Translations under genes and position numbers: made by a program
In this document: one piece after another, positions 6,263 through 61,784 of the stretch
How the letters are laid out: every line of letters starts with the position of its first letter
Position numbering within the stretch: position 1 is the first letter of the stretch
Source of the DNA: a virus
Virus record (IMG/VR): IMGVR_UViG_3300045911_000062
Span: 1-64,000 of that record
Strand: one strand, 5' to 3'
Length of the DNA stretch: 64,000 nt
The notes under the pieces: generated by a model
Seen by the model: only the letters and a program-made list of their open reading frames with translations
What the model was told of the DNA's origin: nothing
Database searches by the model: none

Positions 6263-8200
6263 TCAAAAGAAATGCCAGGGTCTAGTTTGCAATCCGCACA
6301 AATTATCAAAGGCTGAACCAATATCTAATTGTATTATATTTTTATTATGAAAATCATGAATCAATCTTTTAGCGGCAAACGAACAAGAATATAACACAAC
6401 ACAATTATCTTCAATACATTCTTGTAATTTTTGTAATAACAAAGGGTACTGTTTCACAACTGCGCATGTATCTTTGACACTATAAGGTTTAATCATTGAA
6501 ACTCTATTAAGATTTAAATTATTTTCAGTAACAATATGAATAAAATTTAAATGAGAATTAAGTTTACTTAAATAATCTGGTCCAACTATTATAACTTTTT
6601 TATTTTTTAATAATTCAAATAATTCAAAAATAGTTCCGTCAATTTGCCATCTTGAAAATAAACCACCATCAAACAAATTTAAATCCTTTATGTATTCAAA
6701 TATATTTTCAACCATGTAATCCTTTTTTAATACTTCTGTACTAATACCGACATAATATGGAACTTTTTTAATAATTGGCGTTACAAATTTATCCATGAAT
6801 TCTTCGGCATTTTTATCCCATTTAACTCTATGGATATTATATGCATTTTTTTCTTTTATTCTAAGCATGCATATCCATTCCCCATCATTATATCTAGCTA
6901 ATGATATTGGAATATTATTTTTAATGCTGTTAAAAATTAAATTTTTAATATTATCATTCTCAATTTTTACATTGTCATAAGTCAAAAATGGATTAACTTT
7001 TTGTTTAACTTTAAAAACAGTATTATCAGTAAAAGATTTTGGAACAATTTTTCTATATGTGCTAATTGCTAATGAATAAAACCTATTATCTATAAAATCA
7101 AAAATTTTAGCCTGTTGGTTTTCGTATGATAATATATTATTAACATGTTTTTGCAGTAGTAATGACATAGACAACAACTTATCTCTGTCATTGTAAAGAT
7201 TATGAATAATTTTTATAATATTATTAACATCGTTTTTATTTACTATAAAAATCATATCATCAGTATATTTAAAATGATCTTTACAATTATAGATATCTGT
7301 TGTGATAAGCACTACGCCCTGAAGCATTGCTTCGCAACCTAATGGCCATCCATTATATGCTTTTCCGTTTTCTAAATTTATTATAATATCTACATTTTTA
7401 GAATAAAATTCATCTAAATCTTTAACAGACATTGGTTTATACGATTTAATATATTTCGATTGCACCCCATTTCCTATTGAGATAAACTCTATATCGTGTT
7501 GAGGGAACATTTTTTTATATTGCTCTACGACAGATCTATAAACAAAAGCACCTTTTTGTTCTGGATCGCCCATTGAACTGAAGCACACTCTTAGAGTTTT
7601 AATATTTTTTTGTTTAGGAATTACTATATTATTTTTGGGTAATAAAGTGCCACCCAAAACCTCTATAAAATTTTCGTGTTTAGCCTCTTTCAACCATTTA
7701 GTAGTAATAGGACTGGTTGATATGACGTTTGCATCTTTATGTATTTTCGTAATCGCATTTTTTCCGCTGAGTCCCCCACCAGGATATAAATGTATAAATT
7801 GTTTATTATATTCTACTTTAAAGAATTTATTAAATTTTTCATACATTGAAAGAAATATATGATATATGTACTTATAATTTTTTATATCAAAATTTTCATT
7901 TTTAGTAAATAAATATGAAAACCCATTGATAGTATTAAATCTTTTTCCATCTATCCTTGTATTAAACTTATTTAAATGATTATATTTTTGATCAAAAATT
8001 AATATATTGTAGTCATTTAAACCATAATATTCTTTCATTTCATCATAGTCAAAATCATAGTTTATCTTAGAATATGAGTCGATTTTATATACTAAGAAAT
8101 CTGCATTGTATCTATCAATAAAAGCCTTACTCTCTTCTATTCTCCATTTTCCATATTTACAAGGAAATAGTATATCAGTTACAAGAATCATATGATTCAA
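6263..8200 (-). CDS. Bifunctional glycosyltransferase: GT-B (GT4-like) + GT-D fold domain
   Basis: N-domain has QKG...GWPLGCEAMLQGVVLITT. C-domain has SLARYNDGE...LDIGSAFD...TR, the GT-D/DUF1792-like signature. Confidence 0.7.
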   Translation of the reverse strand: MNHMILVTDILFPCKYGKWRIEESKAFIDRYNADFLVYKIDSYSKINYDFDYDEMKEYYGLNDYNILIFDQKYNHLNKFNTRIDGKRFNTINGFSYLFTKNENFDIKNYKYIYHIFLSMYEKFNKFFKVEYNKQFIHLYPGGGLSGKNAITKIHKDANVISTSPITTKWLKEAKHENFIEVLGGTLLPKNNIVIPKQKNIKTLRVCFSSMGDPEQKGAFVYRSVVEQYKKMFPQHDIEFISIGNGVQSKYIKSYKPMSVKDLDEFYSKNVDIIINLENGKAYNGWPLGCEAMLQGVVLITTDIYNCKDHFKYTDDMIFIVNKNDVNNIIKIIHNLYNDRDKLLSMSLLLQKHVNNILSYENQQAKIFDFIDNRFYSLAISTYRKIVPKSFTDNTVFKVKQKVNPFLTYDNVKIENDNIKNLIFNSIKNNIPISLARYNDGEWICMLRIKEKNAYNIHRVKWDKNAEEFMDKFVTPIIKKVPYYVGISTEVLKKDYMVENIFEYIKDLNLFDGGLFSRWQIDGTIFELFELLKNKKVIIVGPDYLSKLNSHLNFIHIVTENNLNLNRVSMIKPYSVKDTCAVVKQYPLLLQKLQECIEDNCVVLYSCSFAAKRLIHDFHNKNIIQLDIGSAFDNLCGLQTRPWHFF

Positions 8201-9194
8201 TACATTCCATTATAAAGTTTATATCATTATCTGAAATATCTTCGTGTAAGGGGAAATTGATAATTCTTTCGTATAAATCAACTGAATTAGTAAATGGTAT
8301 TAAAGGTTTATAATATTTGTTTGCTTCTATTCCTCTATCTCTGAAATATTTTATATTTGCAGGCTTTTTAAACAATACCGGCAAATTTCCATAAAATACA
8401 CCCTGAGAATAGTTAAATAATTCGTAAGATTGTTTATCATTGAATAGTTTTACAAATTTATTTTGTATTTCTAAATGTTTATCTATATTATAAGATTCTA
8501 AATGTTGTAAAATGAAAGCGGCAGAAACATCTGACATTTTAAAATTTGACGATAGAATCTTATAATCTCTTTGATCGTTGAATCCAAATCCTAATATTCT
8601 TTGTAATTCATCATAAAGATAACTATCGACGACAAGAAAACCCCCCTCTCCGAAACCTAAAGTTTTTGTGTGGTGGAGTGAACTGAAAGAAGCGTCTCCC
8701 ATCATACATATATTTTTACCAAATTTATCTTTACTCATAAAAGACGAAGCATTATCATACATCAATAATCCGCCACGTTTTTTATAATTAATTACAGTAC
8801 CAAATAAATTTGTGATTATAATACCATCATATTTTTCTGAATAATATTCATCTATTGTATACGTATTGCTATTAATATCGTGTATATTAGTTGAAGCTCT
8901 ATTAACTACGCATGAAGGAAAAGTAAAAGCTGGACTTGCCCATCTTTTTGTTGTATTATTAATAGAATCATACCAAAACATAAATGCATGCAATGCAGTT
9001 GTACCATTTGATGAACACAAAACTCTCTTACCTGCTTGCAAATTTATCATTTCTGATAATTTATCTTCCAATAATCTTTTTACTGGCCCATTATTTGTAT
9101 ATTGATTAATAGATTTTGAATTATCTAAATACTTTTCTACTAAATTAAAATTTATCTTTTTTTTCTGTATATAGTTTATCATTTTATAACACAA
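8175..9194 (-). CDS. DegT/DnrJ/EryC1/StrS PLP-dependent sugar aminotransferase
   Basis: SNGTTAL, PAFTF, DNASS and SLHHTKTLGFGEGG (PLP lysine), plus NFKMSD. Confidence 0.9.
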   Translation of the reverse strand: MCYKMINYIQKKKINFNLVEKYLDNSKSINQYTNNGPVKRLLEDKLSEMINLQAGKRVLCSSNGTTALHAFMFWYDSINNTTKRWASPAFTFPSCVVNRASTNIHDINSNTYTIDEYYSEKYDGIIITNLFGTVINYKKRGGLLMYDNASSFMSKDKFGKNICMMGDASFSSLHHTKTLGFGEGGFLVVDSYLYDELQRILGFGFNDQRDYKILSSNFKMSDVSAAFILQHLESYNIDKHLEIQNKFVKLFNDKQSYELFNYSQGVFYGNLPVLFKKPANIKYFRDRGIEANKYYKPLIPFTNSVDLYERIINFPLHEDISDNDINFIMECIESYDSCN

Positions 9195-9934
9195 TAATCC
9201 TGTAAATTTCCATTTTTAAACCAAGGTCTACTTTCTATTCCGGCCCATGCGTCTAACGTCGCCCCGAAATCTATAGCTATTTTGTTTTGCCTTTTTAATA
9301 TTACACCTAAATCTTTCGCAGTTATACTAACTCCGTACAAAACAACATTTTCATTTATATGTGCTAACTTATTTATAATAGTTTGTCGATCATTATCAAC
9401 AATTGTGACAGAAACATCAGTTTGTAACAAATTACAAATTTTATTAACATTTATATTAGAATTTGGCGTAATTATATTAATTGGAACACCAGATATTATA
9501 TTTTTAAAATTATTTGGATCACCAAATAATCTCGATCTTGGTAACTGATGATCACAACAAATTGGAATATCTATATTCATTTTTTTTAAAGCATCTAATG
9601 ATAAAGACCATTGCTCTTTTTTAAATTTCATTTTCTGGCAAACTTTATTATTAAAATCCATAATACCAACTATGTCAGAATATTTAAGACATGTAACCAA
9701 ATGATCATAAAATATTTCTCGCATACTGTCGAACTGCAAAATGTCGAAATTCCATAGTTTTGCTATTTTATTTTTAAGGGCGTCCGGAACATTGTTGTTT
9801 ATTATATGAATTTCTGCATCACCAATTCTGGATAAACAAAAAGGAGTATTTGTTTTTATGCAGTATTTAACACGATCAGCAACTTCTTCGTTGCTTAAAG
9901 ACACCTCAAGATATTTGTTTAAATGGGCAGGCAT
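9179..9934 (-). CDS. GT-D fold glycosyltransferase
   Basis: SRIGDAE near the N-terminus and AIDFGATLDAWAG-SR at the C-terminus. Confidence 0.7.
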   Translation of the reverse strand: MPAHLNKYLEVSLSNEEVADRVKYCIKTNTPFCLSRIGDAEIHIINNNVPDALKNKIAKLWNFDILQFDSMREIFYDHLVTCLKYSDIVGIMDFNNKVCQKMKFKKEQWSLSLDALKKMNIDIPICCDHQLPRSRLFGDPNNFKNIISGVPINIITPNSNINVNKICNLLQTDVSVTIVDNDRQTIINKLAHINENVVLYGVSITAKDLGVILKRQNKIAIDFGATLDAWAGIESRPWFKNGNLQDYCVIK

Positions 9935-10682
9935 TAAATAATTTTCTTAAGTCTATATTAAAATCATATTGTTCAAAACTATTTATTATTTCATTTATAG
10001 TTGTATCTTTATTAATTTTTAAAGAATTGCAATGTTCCCTATTTACAGAAGAGTAATAATCATGAAATTTAAATCCATTACCGAGAACTTTATCAGAAAA
10101 CTCTACCCATTTAGATTTTATTCCATATGCATCCGCTGCTATTAAGCCGTGCAATGAACTTGATGCTATCATTTCACATGATAAAATCTGATCTACTACA
10201 TTATTAATTCCAGATAATATATCTATTTTCAAAATTTCTTTTGATTTGTTATAATTAAACCAATCATTATTAGCATCAACATAATGTGGAATAATTCCTA
10301 GTTTGTACTTCTTTTTTACTAATGGATTATAGTATTTTGGGTACAATAATGCAGGGTCTCCATATACTTCTGGACAATCTATTCCTTGTTTTAAAATGAT
10401 ATCTCTTGATAACTTCCCACGAACAGCACATATTTGTTTTGGAATTGTTGATAATTTTCTAGAGCTTGAAAGAAAACCTGCTCCCCATATTATAGAACCG
10501 GAATCTGCTCTTTGTAAAATACTACCAATACAGATATATTTTTCTAAATTATTTCCATGATTTATCCATACTACTTTTTTTCTAGAGATTTTTTCTATCA
10601 AGGTTTTATTAAGTAAATCCCCCCAATTATTTTTATCACTTCCATTAATTGGATTGTACCAAAACACATTTATTGATGACAT
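9906..10682 (-). CDS. Polysaccharide pyruvyl transferase (ExoV-like)
   Basis: NWGD, IGSIL, AVRG, GDPALL, GIIPHY, SSSLHGLI-ADAYG and FKF-DY motifs. Confidence 0.88.
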   Translation of the reverse strand: MSSINVFWYNPINGSDKNNWGDLLNKTLIEKISRKKVVWINHGNNLEKYICIGSILQRADSGSIIWGAGFLSSSRKLSTIPKQICAVRGKLSRDIILKQGIDCPEVYGDPALLYPKYYNPLVKKKYKLGIIPHYVDANNDWFNYNKSKEILKIDILSGINNVVDQILSCEMIASSSLHGLIAADAYGIKSKWVEFSDKVLGNGFKFHDYYSSVNREHCNSLKINKDTTINEIINSFEQYDFNIDLRKLFNACPFKQIS

Positions 10683-12028: not shown

Positions 12029-12031
12029 ATT

Positions 12032-13584: not shown

Positions 13585-14868
13585 TTAGTTAAGTAATATT
13601 TTACCACCATCGACACGTAATATGTAACCCCCATTATGCATCAGCAACGCGGGATTACTAGGTTCAGACGATGGTGTAGGTGTAGGTGTAGGCGTAGGTG
13701 TAGGTGTAGGCGTAGGTGGTTCTATGGTATTTACCGTTATATTTAACACTTCCCCTACATTCATATGTATATTATATGGTTTAGGAACTGAACATTCTTC
13801 AAAACCATCAAAACCAGCCCCAAATTTATACCCATATAATCTTATTTCACCATTCCCAGATAACGGAGCGGAGATACTTTCAGCAAATGTTAATATTGTT
13901 GTATTTGTTTCTGGATTGTATGAATGATTACTAATTTTATATTCAGTTAAATTAAACGTATCAGGATTATAGAACCATACTCGTCTTGGGGCTATTAAAC
14001 CAGTTCGCAGTTGAATTGAACCGTGTATATTTTCTGAAACATGATTAAATACATTATTATTTTTTATTTTTATAATAGTATCAGTACCATTATAAGTTAC
14101 TGTTTTTACTTGATATACACCGTTATTTTTATTTGGACTTTTAACTTCGATATAGCCAGATATTGAGGTGGTATCTACCTGTTCGCTTACAATGATTTCT
14201 GTTCTGTTCGATTCTGGTATGTATCTAACTAAAGTTACAGCATAAACGCCGTCATTATAACGGCTGCCAGACACCCTAAAATGCATCTTACTTTTTATTT
14301 CTGAAACTTTATTTCCAGAAATAAAAAAGCTATTGGGCGTATTATGAACTATATCAAAAGTGAAAAAGGGGACTACTAAAAATAATTTATGTATATTGAA
14401 CGTATTTAAATGGTTCCCTCGCAAAATTATTGTATCATGAGATGGAATATTATGAATTTGAATTCTTTTATCAAATGTAAAATTGTTTATTAAATCAGGA
14501 TCTCCAGATAATTCTACCGTATCTGATGTTTCATTTATTGAAATAATAGGAGCAGAAACTAAAAGATCAGAATTGTCAAATATTAATCCATATCCACCGA
14601 TACATTCAAAAAGATCGCAACACTCTACTGCATCAAAACCACATTCTTCGTCCCATATTAAACCAAATCCAACAGGTCCGCATAATGCTAAATTTTTCTT
14701 AATTATGTCGATATTGTGATTTTCTGTAATACCTACAGAAATGTATTCATTTATCCTATATTTTTCGATGACTTCCAACAGCTTAGTATGATACGGTTTT
14801 ACTTCTAAAAAATAGCGTATCAGTGCATCTATAGGTTTTGATATTCCGGGCCTTAGTTCACAAGACAT
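13585..14868 (-). CDS. Putative baseplate/virion structural protein with a C-terminal Pro-Thr tract
   Basis: EVKPYHTK motif, Cys-rich segment and PPTPTPTPTPTPTPTP. CATAAATA at 14891-14898 (-). Confidence 0.6.
   Translation of the reverse strand: MSCELRPGISKPIDALIRYFLEVKPYHTKLLEVIEKYRINEYISVGITENHNIDIIKKNLALCGPVGFGLIWDEECGFDAVECCDLFECIGGYGLIFDNSDLLVSAPIISINETSDTVELSGDPDLINNFTFDKRIQIHNIPSHDTIILRGNHLNTFNIHKLFLVVPFFTFDIVHNTPNSFFISGNKVSEIKSKMHFRVSGSRYNDGVYAVTLVRYIPESNRTEIIVSEQVDTTSISGYIEVKSPNKNNGVYQVKTVTYNGTDTIIKIKNNNVFNHVSENIHGSIQLRTGLIAPRRVWFYNPDTFNLTEYKISNHSYNPETNTTILTFAESISAPLSGNGEIRLYGYKFGAGFDGFEECSVPKPYNIHMNVGEVLNITVNTIEPPTPTPTPTPTPTPTPSSEPSNPALLMHNGGYILRVDGGKILLN
13672..13719 (-). repeat. 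Hexanucleotide coding repeat, (Pro-Thr)7
   Basis: (CCTACA/CCTACG)n on the minus strand. Confidence 0.95.
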
Positions 14869-21305: not shown

Positions 21306-21312
21306 ATAAATA
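21305..21312 (+). promoter_or_regulatory. T4-type late promoter upstream of glycosyltransferase island B
   Basis: Exact TATAAATA 28 nt before ATG 21341. Confidence 0.6.
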
Positions 21313-21340: not shown

Positions 21341-21982
21341 ATGATTAGAAAAACACTTCAAGACTTTTATGATAAGGTATCAGGCAGAACAGTTTATGTC
21401 ATTGCCGGTGGGTCAACAGTAAAAACACAAAATTTAAACCTTTTAAATGGAAAATTAGTAGTATGCCTTAACAATTCATATTCTATTTATCCCGATGCAT
21501 TGGCATTATATTGGGCAGATGAAACATGGGTGAATAACCATATAGAAGGTGTAAAAAATCATCCAGCTAAATTTAGATTTCATAGTAAATTCCATGTCTC
21601 TGATAAGTATTTAAATAGTGAAAAACATCTTGGAATTGGAAATTCAACTATATTAAGACGTACTGGTGATAAAGGAATAGATCCAGATTTAAATAATGTT
21701 AGGGGCAACAATAGTGGAGCACATATATTAAATTTATTGTATAATTGTAAAGTTAGAAGAATAATATTATTAGGATATGATATGAAAATTATTGATGGTA
21801 AATCACATTGGCACGGTGGACACAGCTTATCAATAAAACCAGAAGTATACTGCAATCTTTTTATACCTTCAATTCAATCTATGGCAGATTTTTTTAAGCG
21901 TGCAAATATAGAAGTTATAAACACGTCACCAAATACAGATTTAAAATGCTTTCCTAGAATGAAACTTGAGGATGTCGTATGA
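21341..21982 (+). CDS. Maf/DUF115-like (sialyltransferase-like) glycosyltransferase
   Basis: VIAGGSTV, VCLNNS, WAD--W, NNSG-H-LNL, IILLGYDM and HWHG motifs. Confidence 0.65.
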   Translation: MIRKTLQDFYDKVSGRTVYVIAGGSTVKTQNLNLLNGKLVVCLNNSYSIYPDALALYWADETWVNNHIEGVKNHPAKFRFHSKFHVSDKYLNSEKHLGIGNSTILRRTGDKGIDPDLNNVRGNNSGAHILNLLYNCKVRRIILLGYDMKIIDGKSHWHGGHSLSIKPEVYCNLFIPSIQSMADFFKRANIEVINTSPNTDLKCFPRMKLEDVV

Positions 21983-22548
21983 CACAACCTATTATAGTTA
22001 CAGCTTTCAGTTCAAATGAATACTATATTAAATGCGCAGAAAAATTTAAAAAAATGTTTCATAGAAATTGTAACAATTTATTAATTATGGAACAATTTAA
22101 TGATTGTGGAGACTGGCATTCTAATACTAGAAAAAAACCATCAATAATACTAAAAAATCTATGCGAACAAAAACAAACAATTATGTGGATAGATGTTGAT
22201 GCAGAAATATACAATCCTATAGAACTAGATGTTCCAAATGATATTGATATGATGGCTGTTAGGCAAGAGTGGGGACCAAGAAGAACCTGGTGTGTAGGTA
22301 CTATTTTATTTAATTATACACAAAATTCTATAGATTTTTTAACGGAATGGTGTAATGTATGTAATTCAAATAAAGGAACAGATGAAGCTAATCTTGAAAT
22401 TGTTTGGCAAAAGAATTGGAAAAATAAATTAAAAACACAACTATTACCTAGAAAATTTTTTATGGTAAACAAGTTACACGAAAAACAAAAAGATACTGTA
22501 ATACTACACTATTCTTCTGGAAACGCTAGAAAAAAGGAAAAAATATGA
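21979..22548 (+). CDS. Nucleotide-diphospho-sugar transferase (GT-A, GT77/GT34-like)
   Basis: KP-II, WIDVDA (DxD), DE-L and I-H motifs. Confidence 0.7.
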   Translation: MTQPIIVTAFSSNEYYIKCAEKFKKMFHRNCNNLLIMEQFNDCGDWHSNTRKKPSIILKNLCEQKQTIMWIDVDAEIYNPIELDVPNDIDMMAVRQEWGPRRTWCVGTILFNYTQNSIDFLTEWCNVCNSNKGTDEANLEIVWQKNWKNKLKTQLLPRKFFMVNKLHEKQKDTVILHYSSGNARKKEKI

Positions 22549-23219
22549 ACGGAGTGTCTTGGGGAGTTGTAAGTTGTCAACACGACAGTATAGTAATTGT
22601 TTGTAGTGGAAGAAGTTTAAAATCATTTGACATGAATTTATTATCTGGTATTGGACACATTATATGTGTCAATAATTCTTATATTGGTGTTCCCATTTAT
22701 GATGCATGGTTTACCCTCGATCCATGGGGATTGTCTGGTGGACAGTTACCAAAAAAAGGAAATCCAAAATTATACGCAGCAGTTCCACAAGACTTTGGGA
22801 CGCCACACGCAAAAATTCAAAGTCACAGGATAAATGCACCAAAAAATATAACGTATTTACATAGGTTAATATCCCATAATAATCCAACTGTATCAAGTGA
22901 AACTGCTTATAGATTAGGTTTGAGTGAAGACCCCGGTTGTATAAATACTGGCAACTCTGGTTTTGGTGCTCTAAATCTTGCATACCACATGAAACCAAAA
23001 AAAATTTTGATATTAGGCATGGATGGAGATATAGGATATTATTATTCCGGATCAGAAAAGAATAGATCATTGAAATTTTTACCACTAATGATGGAATCTA
23101 CGGTTGATCAGTTAAAAAAAGCAAATATAACAGTAATAAATGGCAGTTTAAACAGTAGTATAACTTGTTTTCAAAAATATACTCCAGAAGAATCAGTAAA
23201 AATATTCAAGGATATTTAA
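22545..23219 (+). CDS. Maf/DUF115-like (sialyltransferase-like) glycosyltransferase, paralogue of 21341..21982
   Basis: IVCSGRSL, ICVNNS, FTLD, NSGFGALNLAY, ILILGMD and VINGS motifs. Confidence 0.65.
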   Translation: MNGVSWGVVSCQHDSIVIVCSGRSLKSFDMNLLSGIGHIICVNNSYIGVPIYDAWFTLDPWGLSGGQLPKKGNPKLYAAVPQDFGTPHAKIQSHRINAPKNITYLHRLISHNNPTVSSETAYRLGLSEDPGCINTGNSGFGALNLAYHMKPKKILILGMDGDIGYYYSGSEKNRSLKFLPLMMESTVDQLKKANITVINGSLNSSITCFQKYTPEESVKIFKDI

Positions 23220-23222
23220 AAA

Positions 23223-24560
23223 ATGCTTGACACTATAATTAAATCTATAAATGACACTAAAGACATAAATGGCAATATAGTTTTTTTCAGAGTGTATAAA
23301 GGTGATATAATTATACGTTTAGCAAAATTGGATATTACAGAAAAGAATTTTTTGATCATACATAATTCTACTGGCTTAGAGCAACCTACCATTTTTGATT
23401 TTGAAAAAGATAATAAGACTTGCTTATACAACAAGGGAAGGTTTTCATTTTCTAGGAAAAATCTTATAAATCGTCTAAATTCTAACATAAAAAACTATAA
23501 AAATAAATTCACAATAAATGATTTTCGTGATATAAAAACTGCAATAAAAAATTTAAAAAATATATCGCCATCTATTTGTGTTATAGATCTAATCCAATAT
23601 GAGCCTACAAAAGAATGTTTAGAGTTTTGTTTTAAAATACTACCAATAAATGGTAATATTATTATAACAAATTACGTTGAAACGAATAATAATCTAAGTT
23701 CAAAAGCCGTTAATGAATTTCTTTATAAAAATAATGACAATATATGTAAAACAATCAATAGTATAGAAAAAACAATAACATTAACAAAAAAAGAAGAATC
23801 TACACAAGACATAATAGAAATATTTCAATACAAAACGGAATCATATAATAATGAATCAGACTTAATACAAACATTTCCATACAAAATGGAAACATATAAA
23901 AATGAACCAGACTTAATAATATCATGTGTGTTGCGTACAGGAGGACCAGTTTATAATTACAACTATGTTAATGCTCTAGCTAATTCTATTAAAAAAAATG
24001 TAAAAATACCACACGAATTTGTATGTCTTACCGACGATCATACCGGATTTAATTCTAATGTGGACTCAATTATAAAATTAAAACACGATTTTAAAAAATG
24101 GTGGTGTAAAATAGAATTATTTAGACCTGATATATTTAAAAACAAAAGAGTATTTTTCTTAGATTTGGACACAGTTATTTTAGAAAATATTGATAATATA
24201 GTTAGTAAGAAATTTAATTTTTGTGGACTAAGAGATTTTTATAAAAATGATACGCTTGGAAGCGGTTTAATGTCATGGACATCAGGCGGTTATCACCATA
24301 TTTATGAAAAATTTTTAAGAAATTCACAAGCAATTATGAATTACACGCCAGAAGGCGATCAACAATGGATCAATCAAAATGTTGATGGCATAACATATTT
24401 TCAAGATGTTTTCGGATCTGAAATTGTTTCTTATAAAAAACATTGTATTAAAAATAAAATATTTAATATGCCTAAAAATGCAAAAATAATATGCTTTCAC
24501 GGAGTACCAAAGCCACATGAAATTAACTATCCACAAATAAGGGATCATTGGCTGCCTTGA
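23223..24560 (+). CDS. Degenerate TylF-like methyltransferase domain fused to a GT-A glycosyltransferase
   Basis: N-domain has GNIVFFRVYKG and IDLIQYEPTK-CLE...GNII (eroded TylF motifs). C-domain has VLRTGG-Y...YV, WWCKIELF, FLDLD, GDQ and CFHG-PKPHE. Confidence 0.7.
   Translation: MLDTIIKSINDTKDINGNIVFFRVYKGDIIIRLAKLDITEKNFLIIHNSTGLEQPTIFDFEKDNKTCLYNKGRFSFSRKNLINRLNSNIKNYKNKFTINDFRDIKTAIKNLKNISPSICVIDLIQYEPTKECLEFCFKILPINGNIIITNYVETNNNLSSKAVNEFLYKNNDNICKTINSIEKTITLTKKEESTQDIIEIFQYKTESYNNESDLIQTFPYKMETYKNEPDLIISCVLRTGGPVYNYNYVNALANSIKKNVKIPHEFVCLTDDHTGFNSNVDSIIKLKHDFKKWWCKIELFRPDIFKNKRVFFLDLDTVILENIDNIVSKKFNFCGLRDFYKNDTLGSGLMSWTSGGYHHIYEKFLRNSQAIMNYTPEGDQQWINQNVDGITYFQDVFGSEIVSYKKHCIKNKIFNMPKNAKIICFHGVPKPHEINYPQIRDHWLP
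23808..23918 (+). repeat. Imperfect 51-bp (17-aa) tandem duplication in the interdomain linker
   Basis: DIIEIFQYKTESYNNES / DLIQTFPYKMETYKNEP / DLI. Confidence 0.85.
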
Positions 24561-24588: not shown

Positions 24589-25635
24589 ATGTCAACTATA
24601 AAATATAAATGTAATACATGTAAAAGAGAAGTTGAATTGTTAGAAAATCAAAACGGGTTAACCGTAATTGGTAGATGCGTGTTGACTAATGGTTGCTTTG
24701 GAAAACTGCAACCTATTGCGAGAAACCCATACAATATAAGAGAAACGTATGATTATTATGACAATGACCTTTCTGAATTATATGAATTCAATTCTAGAAA
24801 CAAATTTTTTAACCATCATCAGATTAATAAAAATACAATATGGAGAATTAAACACAATTTAAATAATCATCCATTTGTAGTAGTATTTGTTAATACTGGT
24901 AACGGAATAAAAAAACTAGATAAATCAAACTATTCTATTAATTATATAGATTCTAATAACTTAATTGTTAATTTAGATAATGCATCTGGCGTAGCTCATT
25001 GTATAGCAAGAACTTCACAACATGACATTATAAAATATTCAGAACCAACAGAACAAATGACCCAAGTTACAGTTGGTGGAACATTCACATTTGCTATTCC
25101 AAAATTACTTACAAAAATTGATACTCCCACACCAACACCAACTCCATCGTTGCCATTAGATTTACAATTTATTGGCGATATAGAATTGGAAATAGGGATA
25201 ACAAAGCCTAATGAAGAGGAAGTTATTTGTTTTGAAAAAATACCAACAACCCAGATAGCTTCTCCATGGGTTGGCATAAATGAAATACTCATACGAAACC
25301 GTAGAAATTATTACGTCAAAATGAAAAACATTTTACAATTTACTACTTTCGATAATGCAAATTTAACTTTTTCTGATATACCTGATGGAACAAAAATTCG
25401 ATTCATCAGAATCAATTATGGTACTGGAATACGTCAAAGCATACCGTCACGAGGAGCATTTGTTCTATTAAGTACCTATCCACACAAAATTCATGATAAA
25501 ACGTTAGACAAAATTCTTGATTTAGGTGAAATAGTAGATACACAATATTGGTATATGACATATAATGGGGGAGAAGTTTATATTAATACTAATGCTATCG
25601 AATCCACATATCCGCATATAAGGAAGGTTTCATGA
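24589..25635 (+). CDS. Putative virion structural protein (Cys motif, HNL beta module, TPTPTPTP tract)
   Basis: C-C...C...C N-terminus, WRIKHNL module and a Thr-Pro insert at about 25123-25146. Confidence 0.55.
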   Translation: MSTIKYKCNTCKREVELLENQNGLTVIGRCVLTNGCFGKLQPIARNPYNIRETYDYYDNDLSELYEFNSRNKFFNHHQINKNTIWRIKHNLNNHPFVVVFVNTGNGIKKLDKSNYSINYIDSNNLIVNLDNASGVAHCIARTSQHDIIKYSEPTEQMTQVTVGGTFTFAIPKLLTKIDTPTPTPTPSLPLDLQFIGDIELEIGITKPNEEEVICFEKIPTTQIASPWVGINEILIRNRRNYYVKMKNILQFTTFDNANLTFSDIPDGTKIRFIRINYGTGIRQSIPSRGAFVLLSTYPHKIHDKTLDKILDLGEIVDTQYWYMTYNGGEVYINTNAIESTYPHIRKVS

Positions 25636-26591
25636 TAATAAAAACAAACTTTTCTAACGGATTGATATATTCTTGGGATGGAATAAATAATCCACTAAAA
25701 TATTCTAATGGATATGTTTCTATTAAAAATACAAAAAAATTAATATCTTGTACTATGTCACATGGTATTAGAAATTATTATATAGAGTTAAAAGATAAAA
25801 ATAATGCTTGGCACATCAATTCATCAGAAAAAACTTGGTTATTAGTACAATTAAATAATTTTACAGGTGAATTACAATATATTACCACAACCATAAACCC
25901 AGAAAACAAATTTGGAACAACTCTACCTAATCAAATTAATATAGGAGAAATGTTTTTTAATTTAACAAATAATAGAATGTTTCAATGGAATGGTTACAAT
26001 TGGGTTAATATAATTCAAATAATAGTTGGAACGTGTCAAAATGGTGTTGTTAATATTTCACATACCGGAACTCAAGTAGGATCAACAAAACCTTCATTTT
26101 GTAGCACAATATTACAGTCTAGAAATGGTATTCCACTGAGAATACAAGATGGTGAATATTATTCATTTATGACTCAAATGGATTATAAAGATAATGTTAA
26201 CTCGTGGAAAACTTCTACAAACATACTTTTAAGTAATTCCATATATTACGGAGTCGCCTCTGAAAATATTCCACATCTTTCTTTGTTAAGTATTGATAAT
26301 AACGGTAATATAGTTAAAGCAAATAACATTAATAAAGTAGCATTTGCTATATCTATGGGGAATTTTTCAATCGGTCAGGTAGTAAAATATATAACTCGTG
26401 GTGAAATTGTTGACAATTCTTGGATATTTGGCCCTGATGAAATCAACAAAAATTTATTTTGTGATGAAAACGGTCGGCTTACTACACATCTTGCTAAATC
26501 TAATATCATTCAAAAAATTGGTACAATAATAGGAAGAGATATTATAGATTTTTACCCGCAAGAGCCAATTTATTTAAATCCTAATTTTTAA
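25632..26591 (+). CDS. Putative virion structural/fibre-anchor protein, paralogue of 791..1747
   Basis: Same layout as 791..1747, with A-ENI...G--V-A...G-I-D-W-F...G-LT...QKIG. Confidence 0.55.
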   Translation: MIIKTNFSNGLIYSWDGINNPLKYSNGYVSIKNTKKLISCTMSHGIRNYYIELKDKNNAWHINSSEKTWLLVQLNNFTGELQYITTTINPENKFGTTLPNQINIGEMFFNLTNNRMFQWNGYNWVNIIQIIVGTCQNGVVNISHTGTQVGSTKPSFCSTILQSRNGIPLRIQDGEYYSFMTQMDYKDNVNSWKTSTNILLSNSIYYGVASENIPHLSLLSIDNNGNIVKANNINKVAFAISMGNFSIGQVVKYITRGEIVDNSWIFGPDEINKNLFCDENGRLTTHLAKSNIIQKIGTIIGRDIIDFYPQEPIYLNPNF

Positions 26592-34823: not shown

Positions 34824-35349
34824 AGTCTATATTTGAGTATTTTTTTAAATTTTTTAATGATTCTAATACATCGGAATCTATTATTTCACACCAATCCCAA
34901 TATGTATCTTTAATATTGTTTAAAAAATGTTCCTCATTTATAGCATAATCGTGTGCCATAATAAAATCGCCAGAGTTTATTATCCTAGAAAAATAATTAA
35001 ATTCCTTTTTTTTATCGCCACCGTCACATAAAATCAAAGTTTTTCCACTTGATATTTTATCATTGATAATATCTAATGCATCTTTAGAGAATACGTCTAA
35101 TATTATTCTTCCTTTTAAATTTTCGTCTCCTACCCTATCAACAATATCAAAAGATAAAAAATTATAATTATATTCTATAGATTTTTCATATAAAAACAAA
35201 CAAAATCCACCATATGCAGTTCCAATTTCTATAACATTTTTAAAATTTTGTTCTTTTAAAAAAACATCAAAAGATGCAAATGTTATATTATTTTGCATAG
35301 CTTTAAAGTTTTTATATACAAAAAATCCAGTTTTATTAAAGTAATCCAT
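34786..35349 (-). CDS. Class I SAM-dependent O-methyltransferase (CmcI-like)
   Basis: VIEIGTAYGG, LILCDGG-K--EF and GD-I-AHDY. Confidence 0.75.
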   Translation of the reverse strand: MDYFNKTGFFVYKNFKAMQNNITFASFDVFLKEQNFKNVIEIGTAYGGFCLFLYEKSIEYNYNFLSFDIVDRVGDENLKGRIILDVFSKDALDIINDKISSGKTLILCDGGDKKKEFNYFSRIINSGDFIMAHDYAINEEHFLNNIKDTYWDWCEIIDSDVLESLKNLKKYSNIDFEKCAWLCCEKK

Positions 35350-37730: not shown

Positions 37731-37775
37731 GGCCAATACTTTAAAAAAATAATAATATTAGTGCATTAGTAAATT

Positions 37776-55932: not shown

Positions 55933-55949
55933 AGTAAGAATATACAACA

Positions 55950-55982
55950 AAAAAGGCAAGGACACAAGTTCCTTGCCTTTTT
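55950..55982 (-). terminator. Rho-independent terminator downstream of the tail sheath gene
   Basis: AAAAAGGCAAGGA-cacaagt-TCCTTGCCTTTTT. Confidence 0.85.
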
Positions 55983-59116: not shown

Positions 59117-59842
59117 TTATTTAGTTATTGTATTATTTATAATTATACCAAGCAAAATAGTCTCATTCCATACATGAGTAGAAATTGTTGCATAAAATTC
59201 TATATTAGATCTAATTATATGTTCAATATAATTAGCATAATCACCATCGTCTACTGAATCAGAATTGCTCAAGGATTTATTGACATATTGATTATCAGTT
59301 AAATCAAACCAAGAGATAGCATTCAATGCTTCCGGCAAACTACCACTTTCTGATAGTATAACACATAGTGTAATTCATGGTGTAATTGATGGTGTAATAG
59401 ATGGTGTAATTGATGGTGTAATAGATGGTGTAATAGATGGTGTAATAGATGGTGTAATAGATGGTGTAATAGATGGTGTAATAGATGGTGTAATAGATGG
59501 TGTAATAGATGGTGTAATAGATGGTGTAATAGATGGTGTAATAGATGGAGTATTACTGACTATTACAAATTGTTTTGAATTTTCAATAAAATATATGTTA
59601 AGAAGTCCAATAACATTATTTGAAAAATTAAAATTTATATATGTATCATTATATGTTATATTGTTAGGATATATTTGTTGGCCATTTATATCTAAAATAT
59701 TAAAATAAAAATTTGTTCCGTAATTTCTTACTGATACAGAATTACCATTAAACTTTATAGATCGCCATTTATCATTATCTGGTGCCTGACCAGAATGTAA
59801 TATTATATTTCCAGTTAGTATATCTAAAAAACAATTTGACAT
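59117..59842 (-). CDS. PSIT-repeat structural protein. One 242-codon frame is split by a single TGA (59375-59377) in the last repeat unit; the ORF track lists it as two ORFs
   Basis: CCA TGA ATT ACA versus repeat consensus CCA TCA ATT ACA. The frame continues without a stop into the 59117..59338 ORF. Confidence 0.7.
59369..59548 (-). repeat. 12-bp tandem array: (Pro-Ser-Ile-Thr)14 plus one stop-containing unit
   Basis: (CCATCWATTACA)n. Confidence 0.97.
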
Positions 59843-59927: not shown

Positions 59928-61784
59928 TCAAAATGATGATGGTGTTGGCGTTACATCTGGTGTAATTGTTGGGGTTGGTGTCGGTGTCAATGTAATATTT
60001 GGATCAATATCAATAGAGTTCAATTCACCAAATGCAATTGTTTGAATATCTTCATTAGATGGATCTATAAAATCGACTAAAGAAAAAGAAGAAATAGTAT
60101 TACCATCAAATTCAAATGCATAACCGTTTGAATTTAATGGGAAATAAATTCTATGACGACCTGAACGCCCGGAAACATGCATAGAAGATGCATATGATCC
60201 CATATCATATAGTGGATTAAAAAGTTCATTTCCTAAATGATCAGTCATAATAAATCCACTTGAATAAATTTGAAGGTTATAATCTGATGTGTCAACTAAA
60301 TATGTCACATAGCCTGTAATGGTATCCATTTTAACATCTAATAAATTTGAAATTGTATAAGAGTTATTTAATGATATGGTTCCAAAACTATCTACAGAAA
60401 AATAATTTCCAATATGATCTACACCTGTGTATACATATGCAAAAACAGTGTTATTATAATATTGAATATATTCTATTTCATCATCAAAAGTATATGTATC
60501 AACTAAAGTAAATGTATTTGTTATATTATCAAACGTGTATGTATGAAAACTATAATTTTCACATATTACATAATAATCTCCAACTTTACCTATATTTCTA
60601 CAATGCATATTTGTATTAGAAATTAAATTTAAATGATTATTTGTTATAGTAAATATTAACAAACCTGGAGGTGTTAAATTCTCTGGCGGTATTCCTTCCG
60701 TAAAACCCTGTCCCGCTGGCACGAATAGATATTCAGTTCCATCAATATAAGTAAATAAAACATCCCTAGTAAAAAGAAAACAAGAACCATTCCATGGATA
60801 TGGTTCTACTATTGCATCATAATATGAAGTTATAAACAATGAAGAACCATATCTAACCAACATTAAAATTGAATCATACCTGACCAAAACTGCATGATTA
60901 TTATGAATGGCGGATAGTATTGTATAAGTTTCAGTGTTAAAAACTAAATCTGGAAAATCATAATTATATGCAATTATATTTAAATCTGACATATCATACG
61001 ACACATATGAAGATGCATCGACGTTTGATTGTAACATAAATTCTTCTTCAACAACAAGTATTGGCGTATTTGATGGTGTAATAGATGGTGTAATAGATGG
61101 TGTAATAGATGGTGTAATAGATGGTGTAATAGATGGTGTAATAGATGGTGTAATTGATGGTGTAATTGATGGTGTAATTGATGGTGTAATTGATGGTGTA
61201 ATTGATGGTGTAATTGATGGTGTAATTGATGGTGTAATTGATGGTGTAATTGATGGTGTAATTGATGGTGTAATTGATGGTGTAATAGATGGTGTAATAG
61301 ATGGTGTAATTGATGGTGTAATTGATGGTGTAATTGATGGTGTAATTGATGGTGTAATAGATGGTGCTACATATTCTATATTAATGTAATCTTTTATGTC
61401 TACAAAAATTAAATTGGCATCCATAACAAAACCAACTTTTTGCATTATCCCTTTATTTGGTACAACAGTAGTTAATTCTCCGCTTTTACCTAAAAAAAGT
61501 GGAGTCATTGGGGGTGCAGAAAATATATTTTCACCAAAATCTATAACGCCAAATCTAATATATTTAATAAGTTCTTGTGGAGAAGAATTTTGTATTGCTA
61601 CTCCATGACATTCTAAAAAATTTGCTGTTGATGCCAATTTTACTAAATTATCACCATACGATACATTTACACAATAAAATTTTGGTATATATTCTATTGC
61701 AGACCCTTCGAGATGTTGACATTCAAATTTAGTGCTACGTAGATAATTATCTATAATTGATATTTTTTTATCTGGGTCAATCAT
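59928..61784 (-). CDS. Putative fibre protein: anchor module + (PSIT)24 stalk + beta-rich head + TP tail
   Basis: N-module shared with 791/25632, then the repeat, about 350 aa of aromatic beta-rich sequence and C-terminal TPTPTPTITPDVTPTP. CATAAATA at 61806-61813 (-). Confidence 0.65.
   Translation of the reverse strand: MIDPDKKISIIDNYLRSTKFECQHLEGSAIEYIPKFYCVNVSYGDNLVKLASTANFLECHGVAIQNSSPQELIKYIRFGVIDFGENIFSAPPMTPLFLGKSGELTTVVPNKGIMQKVGFVMDANLIFVDIKDYINIEYVAPSITPSITPSITPSITPSITPSITPSITPSITPSITPSITPSITPSITPSITPSITPSITPSITPSITPSITPSITPSITPSITPSITPSITPSITPSNTPILVVEEEFMLQSNVDASSYVSYDMSDLNIIAYNYDFPDLVFNTETYTILSAIHNNHAVLVRYDSILMLVRYGSSLFITSYYDAIVEPYPWNGSCFLFTRDVLFTYIDGTEYLFVPAGQGFTEGIPPENLTPPGLLIFTITNNHLNLISNTNMHCRNIGKVGDYYVICENYSFHTYTFDNITNTFTLVDTYTFDDEIEYIQYYNNTVFAYVYTGVDHIGNYFSVDSFGTISLNNSYTISNLLDVKMDTITGYVTYLVDTSDYNLQIYSSGFIMTDHLGNELFNPLYDMGSYASSMHVSGRSGRHRIYFPLNSNGYAFEFDGNTISSFSLVDFIDPSNEDIQTIAFGELNSIDIDPNITLTPTPTPTITPDVTPTPSSF
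61077..61364 (-). repeat. 12-bp tandem array encoding (Pro-Ser-Ile-Thr)24
   Basis: 288 bp of (CCATCWATTACA)n, the same unit as 59369-59548. Confidence 0.97.

What the first reader, a model, noticed from the sequence alone, without database searches (positions are those of the whole stretch)
6263..61784. Candidate phage-encoded mucin-type virion glycosylation system (glycan-coated fibres)
Seen in sequence: 13 glycan-related genes in three islands (6263-10682, 21341-24560, 33032-40466; about 15 kb). They include a double GT60-type initiating transferase, two GT-D domains, GT4-, GT2- and other GT-A enzymes, two Maf-like enzymes, two pyruvyltransferases, methyltransferases and a DegT aminotransferase. 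At least four putative structural proteins carry Pro/Thr/Ser tracts: (PSIT)24, (PSIT)14, (PT)7 and (TP)4. Exact TATAAATA late promoters sit at 21305 and 35370, and island B runs directly into structural genes. Established knowledge: GT60 enzymes put GlcNAc on protein Thr/Ser/Hyp in protists, and GT-D extends glycans on serine-rich repeat adhesins. Mimivirus fibrils carry pyruvylated and methylated amino-sugar glycans made by viral enzymes, and virion glycosylation is known in some actinophages. Inference: this jumbo myophage encodes the writer enzymes and dedicated mucin-like acceptors, and builds a glycan coat. Possible roles are shielding from proteases, antibodies or predators, stiffening fibres, adhesion, or mimicry of host capsule. 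I know of no description of such a complete system in a T4-like jumbo phage.
Basis: partly seen in the sequence, partly recalled or inferred. Interest (0 to 1): 0.92.

Follow-up and report, generated by a model that had tools for sequence, protein, structure and literature searches.

The report
Phage sugar-coating kit for Thr-Pro fibres
A giant phage from a hot-spring microbial mat carries a mucin-type protein-glycosylating enzyme set together with fibre proteins built around long Thr-Pro repeat stalks, and the same enzyme cassette travels with such stalks in three unrelated giant-phage lineages, which makes sugar-coated phage fibres likely but still unproven.

Summary
The 896-aa gene is a tandem GT60 (PF11397, 393 bits). 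Both halves keep the DxH motif, and the N-half model fits mucin-type ppGalNAc-transferases best (Z 19-21).

The tracts are one motif, hydrophobic-Thr-Pro-Ser/Thr: ITPS here, VTPT in a 307-kb close relative, V/I/L-TPT in XacN1. They lie in fibre-like proteins. One anchor domain combines a receptor-binding-protein shoulder with a gpD-like fold.

The strongest evidence is comparative. The cassette GT60 + HtrL/GT2 + methyltransferase occurs in three jumbo-phage lineages that share almost nothing else.
- All 9 GT60-positive genomes examined have TP tracts; 0 of 7 GT60-negative ones do. The negatives include RsoM2USA, a clade relative that lacks every island and every tract.
- In reverse, 10 of 44 tract-bearing IMG/VR contigs carry GT60, against 0 of 44 controls.
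- Published periodic acid-Schiff (PAS) staining found at least two glycoproteins in XacN1 virions.

Limits:
- There is no direct evidence for this phage.
- The kit is not complete, and TP tracts also occur without GT60.
- The XacN1 authors had already proposed phage-encoded virion glycosylation.

Verdict: a probable new variant of phage virion glycosylation. Earlier notes of this scan cover the same stretch only.

The parts
37776..40466 (-). Tandem GT60-type polypeptide GlcNAc-transferase-like enzyme (896 aa, two catalytic units); the proposed initiating enzyme
   Evidence: PF11397 at 1.6e-117, 393 bits, three stretches. Both halves keep LQLDSHHRF, the DxH motif. The AF2 model of the N-half (pLDDT 84) fits GT27 ppGalNAc-Ts best, Z 18.6-21.4 over 261-284 residues. 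It is the orthologue of XacN1 ORF334 (48% and 35% identity) and of the G001 gene (82%).
35391..37736 (-). 781-aa fusion: weak SAM-methyltransferase N-part, HtrL_YibB domain and GT2 domain; the cassette partner of GT60
   Evidence: Pfam PF09612 at 4.5e-12, PF00535 at 1.5e-4, PF13847 at 0.009. It is kept next to GT60 in most of the 80 IMG/VR loci, at 27-82% identity.
34786..35349 (-). 187-aa SAM-dependent (CmcI/rhamnosyl O-methyltransferase-like) methyltransferase; a cassette member
   Evidence: Weak Pfam hits only: PF04989 at 0.005. It is conserved in the cassette in G003 and G005 at 38%. A TATAAATA lies 20 nt upstream, at 35370-35377.
33903..34823 (-). 306-aa HtrL-like protein
   Evidence: Paralogue of the HtrL part of the 781-aa protein (1.4e-4). 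Homologue of XacN1 ORF332.
33032..33916 (-). Polysaccharide pyruvyltransferase, copy 2
   Evidence: PF04230 at 7.5e-13. Paralogue of 9906-10682. No XacN1 homologue.
21341..24560 (+). Island B, four overlapping genes: MptE/DUF115 (Maf-type)-like 213 aa, GT-A Nucleotid_trans 189 aa, MptE-like 224 aa, and a 445-aa protein whose homologues carry TylF-type sugar O-methyltransferase domains
   Evidence: TATAAATA at 21305-21312 lies 28 nt upstream. XacN1 homologues at 261719-264341 lie directly beside the tract-bearing fibres ORF372, ORF370 and ORF369.
6263..10682 (-). Island A: 645-aa protein (weak GT4-type region plus GT-D-like C-part), DegT aminotransferase, GT-D-like protein, pyruvyltransferase
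   Evidence: Conserved in G001. Absent from XacN1 and RsoM2USA.
59928..61796 (-). 622-aa fibre-like protein: gpD-like module (residues ~27-142), (PSIT)24 stalk, predicted beta-propeller (~246-598), TP tail
   Evidence: The module is shared with 791-1747 and 25632-26591. The module's fold is gpD-like, Z 10-11. The propeller is a lead from the ESM Atlas model only, TM 0.62-0.76. The gene lies two genes upstream of the gp15-like gene, where XacN1 has the tract-bearing ORF369.
59375..59842 (-). 155-aa protein ending in (PSIT)14; a TGA replaces the TCA of a repeat unit, and the frame stays open for 77 more codons, to 59144
   Evidence: The G001 orthologue carries (TVTP)n.
13585..14868 (-). 427-aa protein with (PT)7
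   Evidence: The orthologues in G001 (two VTPT tracts) and XacN1 (586 aa, tract of about 140 aa) keep tracts at the same place.
24589..25635 (+). 348-aa protein with (TP)4, directly after island B
   Evidence: It equals the N-terminal 348 aa of XacN1 ORF370 and ORF372, whose long TP tracts start at residue ~360-381.
25632..26591 (+). 319-aa fibre-anchor paralogue, without a tract here; the G001 orthologue has a 70-aa C-terminal TP tract
791..1747 (+). 318-aa fibre-anchor protein, without a tract here; the G001 orthologue is 569 aa with a ~130-aa tract and a head domain
   Evidence: AF2 pLDDT 92. Residues 1-155 resemble receptor-binding-protein/tail-fibre shoulders (Z 7.0-7.5). Residues 193-310 resemble gpD-like decoration proteins (Z 10-11.3). 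The family has 1326 clusters and the domain is always N-terminal; 40 of 107 extended members carry a TP tract, and in 35 it starts right after the domain.
59134..59141 (-). TATAAATA 30 nt upstream of the gp15-like gene: a reference example of the late-type motif before a known structural gene

Best explanation
The phage builds short decorated O-glycans on Thr (and Ser) of hydrophobic-Thr-Pro-Ser/Thr repeat stalks in its own fibre proteins, in the host cytoplasm, before or during virion assembly.

Proposed steps (all inferred):
1. The tandem GT60 enzyme starts the glycan by transferring a HexNAc, probably GlcNAc from host UDP-GlcNAc, to the peptide. This is what mucin-type ppGalNAc-Ts and protist pp-alpha-GlcNAc-Ts do.
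2. The HtrL/GT2 fusion and the other GT-A, GT-D-like and Maf-like enzymes extend it.
3. The O-methyltransferases, the pyruvyltransferases and the DegT-dependent amino sugar cap or decorate it.

The acceptors are trimeric fibre-type proteins with three parts: an anchor (a gpD-like module, with or without a receptor-binding-protein shoulder), a TP stalk, and a distal binding domain such as a beta-propeller. Glycosylation would stiffen the stalk into a bottle-brush rod and protect it from proteases.

Shown here:
- the family and fold of the enzymes;
- the tracts and their positions;
- the fibre-type folds;
- the promoter motif;
- the co-occurrence and the synteny.

Inferred: the acceptor, the sugar identities, the order of steps and the biological role.
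For: 1. Enzyme identity. PF11397 at 393 bits. DxH is kept in both halves. The 28 best solved-structure matches are all mucin-type polypeptide GalNAc-transferases, Z 18.6-21.4. Characterised GT60 enzymes glycosylate protein Thr/Ser (PMC8724618, PMC7185993, PMC3769586).
2. Location. None of the 14 island proteins has a membrane segment.
3. Timing. Island B and the island C methyltransferase carry the same positioned TATAAATA as the gp15-like and prohead-protease-like genes. Nine of 18 motifs sit upstream of starts, against 0.76 expected.
4. Motif conservation. The tetrapeptide is kept from 29% to 50% GC: ITPS here, VTPT in G001, V/I/L-TPT in XacN1.
5. Independent lineages. The GT60 + HtrL/GT2 + methyltransferase cassette is the best-conserved shared block among three clades that share only 2-22 ORFs. 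Each clade is rich in TP tracts.
6. Co-occurrence.
   - Protein metric: 9 of 9 GT60-positive genomes against 0 of 7 GT60-negative ones.
   - Strict DNA pattern: 13 of 23 against 0 of 13, p=7e-4.
   - Reverse test: 10 of 44 tract contigs carry GT60 against 0 of 44 collagen-repeat controls, p=0.001.
7. Within-clade contrast. RsoM2USA shares 67-79 ORFs with G001 and XacN1 but lacks GT60, all islands and all tracts.
8. Adjacency. Island B abuts fibre genes both here and in XacN1. In seven loci of other lineages a tract ORF ends less than 1.6 kb before GT60.
9. Surface-type carriers. Tract proteins carry RCC1, SprB, LamG and propeller domains and fibre anchors.
10. Experiment in a relative. XacN1 virions contain at least two PAS-positive proteins (PMC5852040).
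Against: - There is no direct evidence of glycans on any protein of this phage.
- The PAS-positive XacN1 bands were not assigned to ORFs in the text held here.
- TP tracts also occur without GT60. Seven of the 8 tract-bearing IMG/VR genomes that are at least 90% complete lack it, so tracts can serve as plain linkers.
- The GT60-negative controls were chosen by a collagen-like repeat. That choice may bias them against TP stalks, because the same anchor family uses either stalk type.
- HtrL, pyruvyltransferase and DegT families are best known from polysaccharide and LPS pathways.
- No nucleotide-sugar dehydratase or NeuB was found to feed DegT or the Maf-like enzymes.
- Island A is absent from XacN1, so it need not belong to the same pathway.
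- The two fibre-anchor paralogues in this window carry no tract.
Confidence: 0.58

Rival explanations
1. The islands remodel the host's surface polysaccharide (LPS O-antigen, capsule or EPS) during infection. This would block superinfection or stop progeny from sticking to debris. The TP tracts would then be ordinary unglycosylated linkers.
For: - HtrL_YibB, PS_pyruv_trans, DegT and GT2 are typical of polysaccharide pathways.
- Iyer et al. proposed this role for glycosyltransferase clusters of jumbo cyanophages (PMC7824862).
- TP tracts exist in GT60-negative phages.
Against: - No island protein has a membrane segment, and no flippase, polymerase or initiating phosphoglycosyltransferase was seen in the window.
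- GT60 is known only with protein acceptors, and the model fits ppGalNAc-Ts best.
- The late-type promoter motif and the adjacency to fibre genes do not fit this role.
- The cassette tracks TP tracts across unrelated lineages with presumably different hosts.
Confidence: 0.15
2. The enzymes glycosylate something other than the tract proteins. Candidates are other phage or host cytoplasmic proteins (regulatory O-GlcNAc-like marks), small molecules, or only a few sites such as capsid or tube termini as in actinophages. The co-occurrence with TP tracts would then reflect shared ecology or ancestry of aquatic jumbo phages.
For: - The association is correlational, and the controls are few and were chosen by another repeat.
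- Clade C contributes five of the nine positive genomes.
- In mycobacteriophages the glycans sit on the C-termini of capsid and tail-tube subunits (as cited in PMC12619734).
Against: - Three independent clades plus one within-clade double absence.
- Tract ORFs lie directly upstream of GT60 in several loci.
- Island B is syntenic with fibre genes.
- The tetrapeptide motif is conserved across a wide GC range.
Confidence: 0.2
3. The glycosyltransferases hypermodify phage DNA (glycosylated hydroxymethyl bases) to evade restriction.
For: Phage glycosyltransferases often do this (statement and citations in PMC12619734). A thymidylate-synthase-family gene lies at 28000-28872.
Against: - That gene matches thymidylate synthase strongly (phrog_160, 1.9e-94).
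- GT60, GT-D-like, Maf-like, pyruvyl- and sugar O-methyltransferases are not the families known for DNA glycosylation.
- A link to DNA would not explain the association with TP tracts.
Confidence: 0.04

Closest known systems
Xanthomonas jumbo phage XacN1 (Yoshikawa et al. 2018, PMC5852040): PAS-positive virion proteins attributed to phage glycosyltransferases ORF328 and ORF334
   Same: - It belongs to the same broad clade: DNA polymerase 43% identical, 113-125 shared ORFs with G001, and synteny over window 31.8-59.1 kb.
- ORF334 is the GT60 orthologue.
- Homologues of island B, the HtrL genes and the tract-bearing fibres are present.
   Different: - The paper named only two glycosyltransferases.
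- It did not identify GT60, the cassette, the TP tracts or the glycosylated ORFs.
- XacN1 has a single GT60 unit and a carbamoyltransferase, and it lacks island A and the pyruvyltransferases.
- XacN1 is 50% GC and infects a plant pathogen. This phage is 29% GC and comes from a hot-spring mat.
Mycobacteriophage virion O-glycosylation (Freeman et al. 2023, known here only through its citation in PMC12619734)
   Same: Phage-encoded glycosyltransferases are held to modify dedicated segments of the phage's own structural proteins in the bacterial cytoplasm.
   Different: - There the glycans sit on C-terminal extensions of capsid and tail-tube subunits, and the phages are small siphophages of actinobacteria.
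- Here the candidate acceptors are long tetrapeptide-repeat stalks inside fibre proteins, the initiator is GT60, and the phages are jumbo.
- The enzyme families of that system were not compared here.
Mucin-type O-glycosylation: GT27 ppGalNAc-transferases (animals) and GT60 pp-alpha-GlcNAc-transferases (Trypanosoma cruzi, Dictyostelium)
   Same: - HMM membership in PF11397/GT60, the DxH motif and a GT27-like fold.
- Dense Thr/Pro-rich repeat acceptors, as in the T. cruzi test peptide KPPTTTTTTTTKPP.
   Different: - The known enzymes work in the Golgi, or on Skp1 hydroxyproline in the cytoplasm, of eukaryotes.
- This one is a soluble phage protein in a bacterium, is tandemly duplicated, and carries a roughly 100-residue beta-rich C-terminal module in place of a ricin lectin domain.
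- No prolyl hydroxylase accompanies it.
Mimivirus fibril glycosylation (virus-encoded pyruvylated and methylated amino-sugar glycans); recalled from general knowledge, not read here
   Same: A virus-encoded set of aminotransferase, pyruvyltransferase, methyltransferase and glycosyltransferases, together with surface fibres.
   Different: - That is a eukaryotic giant virus with its own nucleotide-sugar pathways.
- Here no NDP-sugar epimerase/dehydratase (PF01370) or NeuB was found in the complete relative G001.
- Homology of the individual enzymes was not tested.
Fibre proteins with a conserved N-terminal anchor and an exchangeable stalk (phi29 head fibre gp8.5, lambda gpD-type decoration proteins, lactococcal phage p2 receptor-binding protein, Bordetella phage Mtd)
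   Same: - The predicted fold of the 318-aa anchor is a shoulder like p2 RBP, Mtd and the HFTV1 tail fibre (Z 7.0-7.5).
- It is followed by a gpD-like module (Z 10-11.3; phi29 gp8.5 base Z 7.0).
- Relatives carry collagen-like or other fibre repeats where the TP tract sits here.
   Different: - There is no detectable sequence similarity to these proteins.
- Whether the proteins attach to the head or to the baseplate is unknown.

Membership tests
CAZy GT60 / Pfam PF11397 (polypeptide alpha-GlcNAc-transferase, Gnt1) | Profile match above the curated threshold | tested here: met
   393.4 bits against a cut-off of 21, in three stretches covering two catalytic units. The six-frame HMM search also finds it in G001, XacN1 and G002-G005.
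CAZy GT60 / Pfam PF11397 (polypeptide alpha-GlcNAc-transferase, Gnt1) | DxH metal-binding motif in place of DxD (shared by GT27 and GT60; PMC7185993) | tested here: met
   LQLDSHHRF is invariant in both halves and in the XacN1, G003 and G005 orthologues.
CAZy GT60 / Pfam PF11397 (polypeptide alpha-GlcNAc-transferase, Gnt1) | GT-A catalytic fold closest to GT27 polypeptide GalNAc-transferases | tested here: met
   AF2 model pLDDT 84. The top 28 entries are all ppGalNAc-Ts, Z 18.6-21.4, rmsd 3.5-4.1, 261-284 residues aligned. Other GT-A enzymes score 18.6 or less.
CAZy GT60 / Pfam PF11397 (polypeptide alpha-GlcNAc-transferase, Gnt1) | Transfers GlcNAc from UDP-GlcNAc to protein Thr/Ser or hydroxyproline | not testable with these tools
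   This needs an enzyme assay. No prolyl 4-hydroxylase (PF13640) is present in G000, G001, G005 or XacN1, which favours Thr/Ser over hydroxyproline.
Phage virion glycosylation system (enzymes plus acceptor segments in structural proteins) | Phage-encoded glycosyltransferases expressed with structural genes | tested here: inconclusive
   A late-type TATAAATA lies before island B and the island C methyltransferase, as before the gp15-like and protease-like genes. No transcript data are available.
Phage virion glycosylation system (enzymes plus acceptor segments in structural proteins) | Ser/Thr-rich acceptor segments in virion proteins | tested here: met
   Four tract-bearing proteins. Fibre-type folds and domains. 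Virion incorporation itself is inferred.
Phage virion glycosylation system (enzymes plus acceptor segments in structural proteins) | Glycans demonstrated on virion proteins | not testable with these tools
   Only indirect evidence exists: PAS-positive bands in virions of the relative XacN1 (PMC5852040).
Maf / DUF115 (PF01973) flagellin-type nonulosonic acid transferases | Profile match above the threshold | tested here: not met
   The window copies score 11.7-14.8 bits against a cut-off of 34.6. At least 17 of 39 homologues carry a precomputed PF01973 hit, so these are remote relatives at best.
Maf / DUF115 (PF01973) flagellin-type nonulosonic acid transferases | Accompanying nonulosonic acid synthesis genes (NeuB type) | tested here: not met
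   PF03102 is absent from G000, G001, XacN1, G003 and G005. A host supply is not excluded.
GT-D (DUF1792-type) glycosyltransferases of serine-rich repeat adhesins | GT-D-like domain | tested here: met
   PF22882 at 42.5 bits against a cut-off of 27 in 9179-9934. The C-part of the 645-aa protein is paralogous to it.
GT-D (DUF1792-type) glycosyltransferases of serine-rich repeat adhesins | Acts on a GlcNAc-primed Ser/Thr-rich repeat protein | not testable with these tools
   Inference only.
XacN1-like jumbo myophages | Shared gene content and synteny with XacN1 | tested here: met
   About 25 syntenic orthologues between window 31.8-59.1 kb and XacN1 215-250 kb. DNA polymerase 43%, sheath 54% identical. 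The close relative G001 shares 113 ORFs with XacN1.

The most novel reading that the evidence does not exclude
A horizontally mobile mucin-type O-glycosylation cassette is a general module of several unrelated jumbo-phage lineages that has not been recognised before. It consists of a GT60 initiator, an HtrL/GT2 extender and a sugar O-methyltransferase, to which individual lineages add carbamoyl-, pyruvyl-, amino-sugar and Maf-like functions. The cassette would convert hydrophobic-Thr-Pro-Ser/Thr repeat stalks of head or tail fibres into glycan bottle-brushes, in effect phage mucins made in the bacterial cytoplasm. The repeat unit of each genome would be tuned to its own enzyme.
Probability: 0.45. 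Interest if true: 0.85.

Novelty: new variant of a known kind. Interest (0 to 1): 0.74.

Why it matters
Protein glycosylation of phage particles has been shown for only a few actinophages. It was hinted at once for XacN1.

If the cassette really glycosylates TP-repeat fibres, mucin-type O-glycosylation would be a recurrent trait of large environmental phages. That trait would bear on particle stability, protease resistance, adhesion and escape from grazers or immunity. It would also yield a soluble, bacterially active polypeptide O-glycosyltransferase with a simple tetrapeptide sequon, a useful tool for glyco-engineering.

The hypothesis can be tested directly because XacN1 is culturable and its virion proteomics data are public.

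Tried and rejected
- Megablast of 20 kb against cultured phages found nothing.
- A sequence search of the GT60 protein against PDB chains found nothing. The 645- and 445-aa proteins gave only weak, uninformative PDB hits.
- Hydroxyproline route (Skp1-type). No PF13640 prolyl hydroxylase was found in G000, G001, G005 or XacN1; G003 has only a sub-threshold hit. This route was set aside.
- Nonulosonic acid supply. NeuB is absent.
- NDP-sugar epimerase/dehydratase (PF01370) is absent from G001 and XacN1 but present in G003, G005 and RsoM2USA. It is therefore not part of the conserved set.
- The fibre-anchor HMM finds full-length members only in G000 and G001, not in XacN1 or clades B and C. The anchor is therefore not what links GT60 to the tracts.
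- Overall enrichment of TATAAATA was rejected. Only its positioning is informative.
- No RNA holder was listed among public runs.
- Laying contigs beside the repeat showed the TGA in the probable source run and no variant.
- An ESM Atlas search for ORF 31823-33010 returned only viral hypothetical proteins.
- Literature searches for PF11397 and for Gnt1+Skp1+phage found no phage paper.
- The Freeman et al. paper is not held.
- The XacN1 supplement held as text does not list which ORFs were detected or PAS-stained.

Full report
**What the window is.** The window is the first 64 kb of a 73.9-kb viral contig of about 29% GC. CheckV rates the contig 21% complete, which implies a genome near 350 kb.
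- PHROG and Pfam scans find a T4-type replication and tail set. It includes DNA polymerase, clamp, RNase H-type exonuclease, primase-like protein, RNR subunits and ThyA. It also includes sheath, two tube-like proteins, a gp15-like sheath stabiliser, a head-closure protein and a ClpP-like prohead protease.
- The closest cultured relatives are the jumbo myophages XacN1, Xoo-sp13, CM1 and RAS14, with DNA polymerase 41-44% identical. RsoM2USA is more distant.
- Window 31.8-59.1 kb is syntenic with XacN1 215-250 kb.
- The IMG/VR genome G001 (306,759 bp, terminal repeats, 100% complete, 36% GC) is a close relative. It has orthologues of nearly every window gene, including all three glycan islands.
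- Public run records place the source in a hot-spring / microbial-mat metagenome.

**Check of the enzymes.**
- Pfam confirms the following: DegT; a GT-D-like domain; two pyruvyltransferases; a Nucleotid_trans GT-A; HtrL_YibB+GT2 with a weak N-terminal methyltransferase; a weak CmcI-type methyltransferase; and a tandem PF11397 (GT60) protein at 1.6e-117.
- Five genes have no significant Pfam hit of their own, and each has indirect support:
  - The C-part of the 645-aa protein is paralogous to the GT-D-like gene. Its middle gives a weak GT4-type hit.
  - The 213- and 224-aa genes are paralogues with sub-threshold MptE/DUF115 hits, and many of their homologues carry PF01973.
  - Homologues of the 445-aa gene carry TylF-type sugar O-methyltransferase domains. 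Shorter matches are fused to MptE-like or SAM-methyltransferase domains.
  - The 306-aa gene is HtrL-like.
- No island protein has a membrane segment.
- Both GT60 halves keep the DxH motif, which the literature gives as typical of GT27 and GT60 (PMC7185993).
- An AF2 model of the N-half (pLDDT 84) has mucin-type polypeptide GalNAc-transferases as its 28 best solved matches (Z 18.6-21.4). Generic GT-A enzymes score lower.

**Check of the tracts.**
- (PSIT)24 plus a TP tail, (PSIT)14, (PT)7 and (TP)4 are all present, in four different ORFs.
- Read in register, PSIT is ITPS. The G001 orthologues carry (VTPT/VTPS)n at the same positions, and the XacN1 positional or sequence homologues carry V/I/L-TPT tracts of up to about 230 residues.
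- The unit hydrophobic-Thr-Pro-Ser/Thr is therefore conserved from 29% to 50% GC. Composition drift alone would not produce that.

**What carries the tracts.** A module of about 115 residues at the N-end of the (PSIT)24 protein recurs at the C-end of two 318/319-aa paralogues. In G001 each of these three proteins runs straight from the module into a TP tract.
- A profile search finds 1326 clusters of this family. The roughly 315-residue domain is always N-terminal.
- Of 107 extended members, 40 carry a TP tract, and in 35 of these the tract begins at the domain's end. Others carry collagen-like or other fibre repeats there.
- The AF2 model (pLDDT 92) has two parts:
  - a shoulder like those of phage p2 receptor-binding protein, Mtd and the HFTV1 tail fibre (Z 7.0-7.5);
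  - a gpD-like decoration fold (Z 10-11.3; phi29 head-fibre base Z 7.0).
- The part after the (PSIT)24 stalk looks like a beta-propeller in the ESM Atlas model. This is a lead only.
- Tract proteins of other lineages carry RCC1, SprB and LamG domains.

These are fibre-type, surface-type proteins. Whether they sit on the head or the baseplate is open.

**Link between enzymes and tracts.**
- Adjacency. Island B is followed directly by the (TP)4 protein and an anchor paralogue.
  - In XacN1 the island B homologues (ORF373 and the two Maf-like genes) lie in one minus-strand block with the tract fibres ORF372, ORF370 and ORF369 and the gp15-like gene.
  - The (TP)4 protein equals the N-terminal 348 residues of ORF370 and ORF372.
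- Other lineages. Of 80 IMG/VR loci found with GT60, only G001 shares the polymerase synteny. Most of the others keep GT60 next to the HtrL/GT2 protein, and many also keep the methyltransferase or the HtrL-like gene beside it.
- Clades. Whole-genome comparison gives three clades that share only 2-22 ORFs with each other:
  - A: G001, XacN1 and RsoM2USA.
  - B: G003.
  - C: G005, G100, G102, G104 and G107.
  The cassette is the best-conserved shared block.
- Co-occurrence by protein metric. All nine GT60-positive genomes examined have TP tracts, 3-15 ORFs and 172-2122 residues each.
  - None of seven GT60-negative genomes has one.
  - The negatives include RsoM2USA, which belongs to clade A yet lacks GT60, islands A-C and the tract proteins.
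- Strict DNA pattern, (TPxx)6: 13 of 23 GT60-positive records match, against 0 of 13 negatives (p=7e-4).
- Reverse direction. Of 44 IMG/VR contigs picked only by that pattern, 10 carry GT60. None of 44 contigs picked by a collagen-like pattern does (p=0.001).
- In seven loci a tract ORF ends just upstream of GT60.

**Timing.** TATAAATA is not over-represented overall. However, nine of its 18 copies lie 20-63 nt upstream of same-strand starts, where 0.76 would be expected. They precede the gp15-like and protease-like genes, island B, the island C methyltransferase and three other genes. This fits a late promoter, but no transcript data exist.

**Prior knowledge.**
- GT60 enzymes initiate mucin-type O-glycans on Thr/Ser in protists (PMC8724618, PMC3769586).
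- The XacN1 paper reports at least two Schiff-positive virion proteins and proposes that ORF328 and ORF334 make them.
- It did not recognise GT60, the further enzymes or the tracts. I found no paper that connects them.
- Virion glycosylation is established for mycobacteriophages (cited in PMC12619734).

**Limits.**
- All evidence for the acceptor is correlative.
- TP tracts also occur in complete phage genomes without GT60 (7 of 8), so a tract does not need this enzyme.
- The controls are few and were picked by another fibre repeat.
- Several families in the islands are better known from polysaccharide pathways. That keeps host-surface remodelling alive as a rival.
- The kit lacks sugar-nucleotide enzymes.
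- Island A is restricted to the G000/G001 branch.

**Verdict.**
- It is neither proven nor wholly new.
- It is best filed as a new variant of phage virion glycosylation.
- The hypothesis is concrete and testable in the culturable relative XacN1.

Noticed in passing
window 59144-59842 (-): The (PSIT)14 gene stops at a TGA (59375-59377) that sits exactly where a repeat unit has TCA. The frame stays open for 77 more codons, up to just before the gp15-like gene. The stop stands in the probable source run's contig at a depth of about 38, and no variant is seen in contigs. It could be a nonsense allele, a readthrough site or a repeat-mediated switch.
   Followed up: partly
window 59368-59552 and 61062-61366: Both long arrays use the same 12-bp unit, 15 and 25 copies at 97% match. 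G001 uses a different unit (VTPT) in all of its arrays. The arrays therefore look homogenised within a genome, by concerted evolution or by selection for one sequon.
   Followed up: partly
window 30127-31719 (-) and 54376-55965 (-): Two paralogous homing-endonuclease-like genes (DUF7487; HNH phrog_3339/559; 36% identical over 295 residues). One is lodged between the sheath and tube genes.
   Followed up: no
window 28000-28872 (-) versus G001 34653-36617: The thymidylate synthase is 290 aa here. Its first 168 residues match (83%) the start of a 654-aa ORF in G001. This suggests an insertion (intein or fused domain) in the relative.
   Followed up: no
window 61809-64000 and on to contig position 71111 (-): A 3100-aa giant virion-type protein (phrog_10938). 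It is 40% identical over about 2600 residues to XacN1 ORF325, which itself carries a short TP tract near its C-end.
   Followed up: no
window 2868-6125: Next to island A lie a DUF2201 metallopeptidase/VWA-like protein, an AAA ATPase and a macro-domain protein. They may form a separate module related to ADP-ribose handling or counter-defence.
   Followed up: no
window 11681-12949 (-) versus G001 436-1647: In G001 the homologues of these two genes lie between the (TVTP)n gene and the gp15-like gene. Here they lie 46 kb away, next to the (PT)7 gene. This is a local rearrangement around the tract genes.
   Followed up: no
L044 8849-9952; L080 8554-9987; L081 7126-9921; L054 7514-9934: In other phage lineages an ORF with a TP tract of 170-220 residues ends immediately upstream of the GT60 gene. 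These are candidate enzyme-acceptor gene pairs worth cloning.
   Followed up: partly
window 31823-33010 (+): A conserved 395-aa protein (55% identical to XacN1 ORF329, 86% to G001). A positioned TATAAATA precedes it, and it sits between glycan genes in both phages. It matches no known family.
   Followed up: partly
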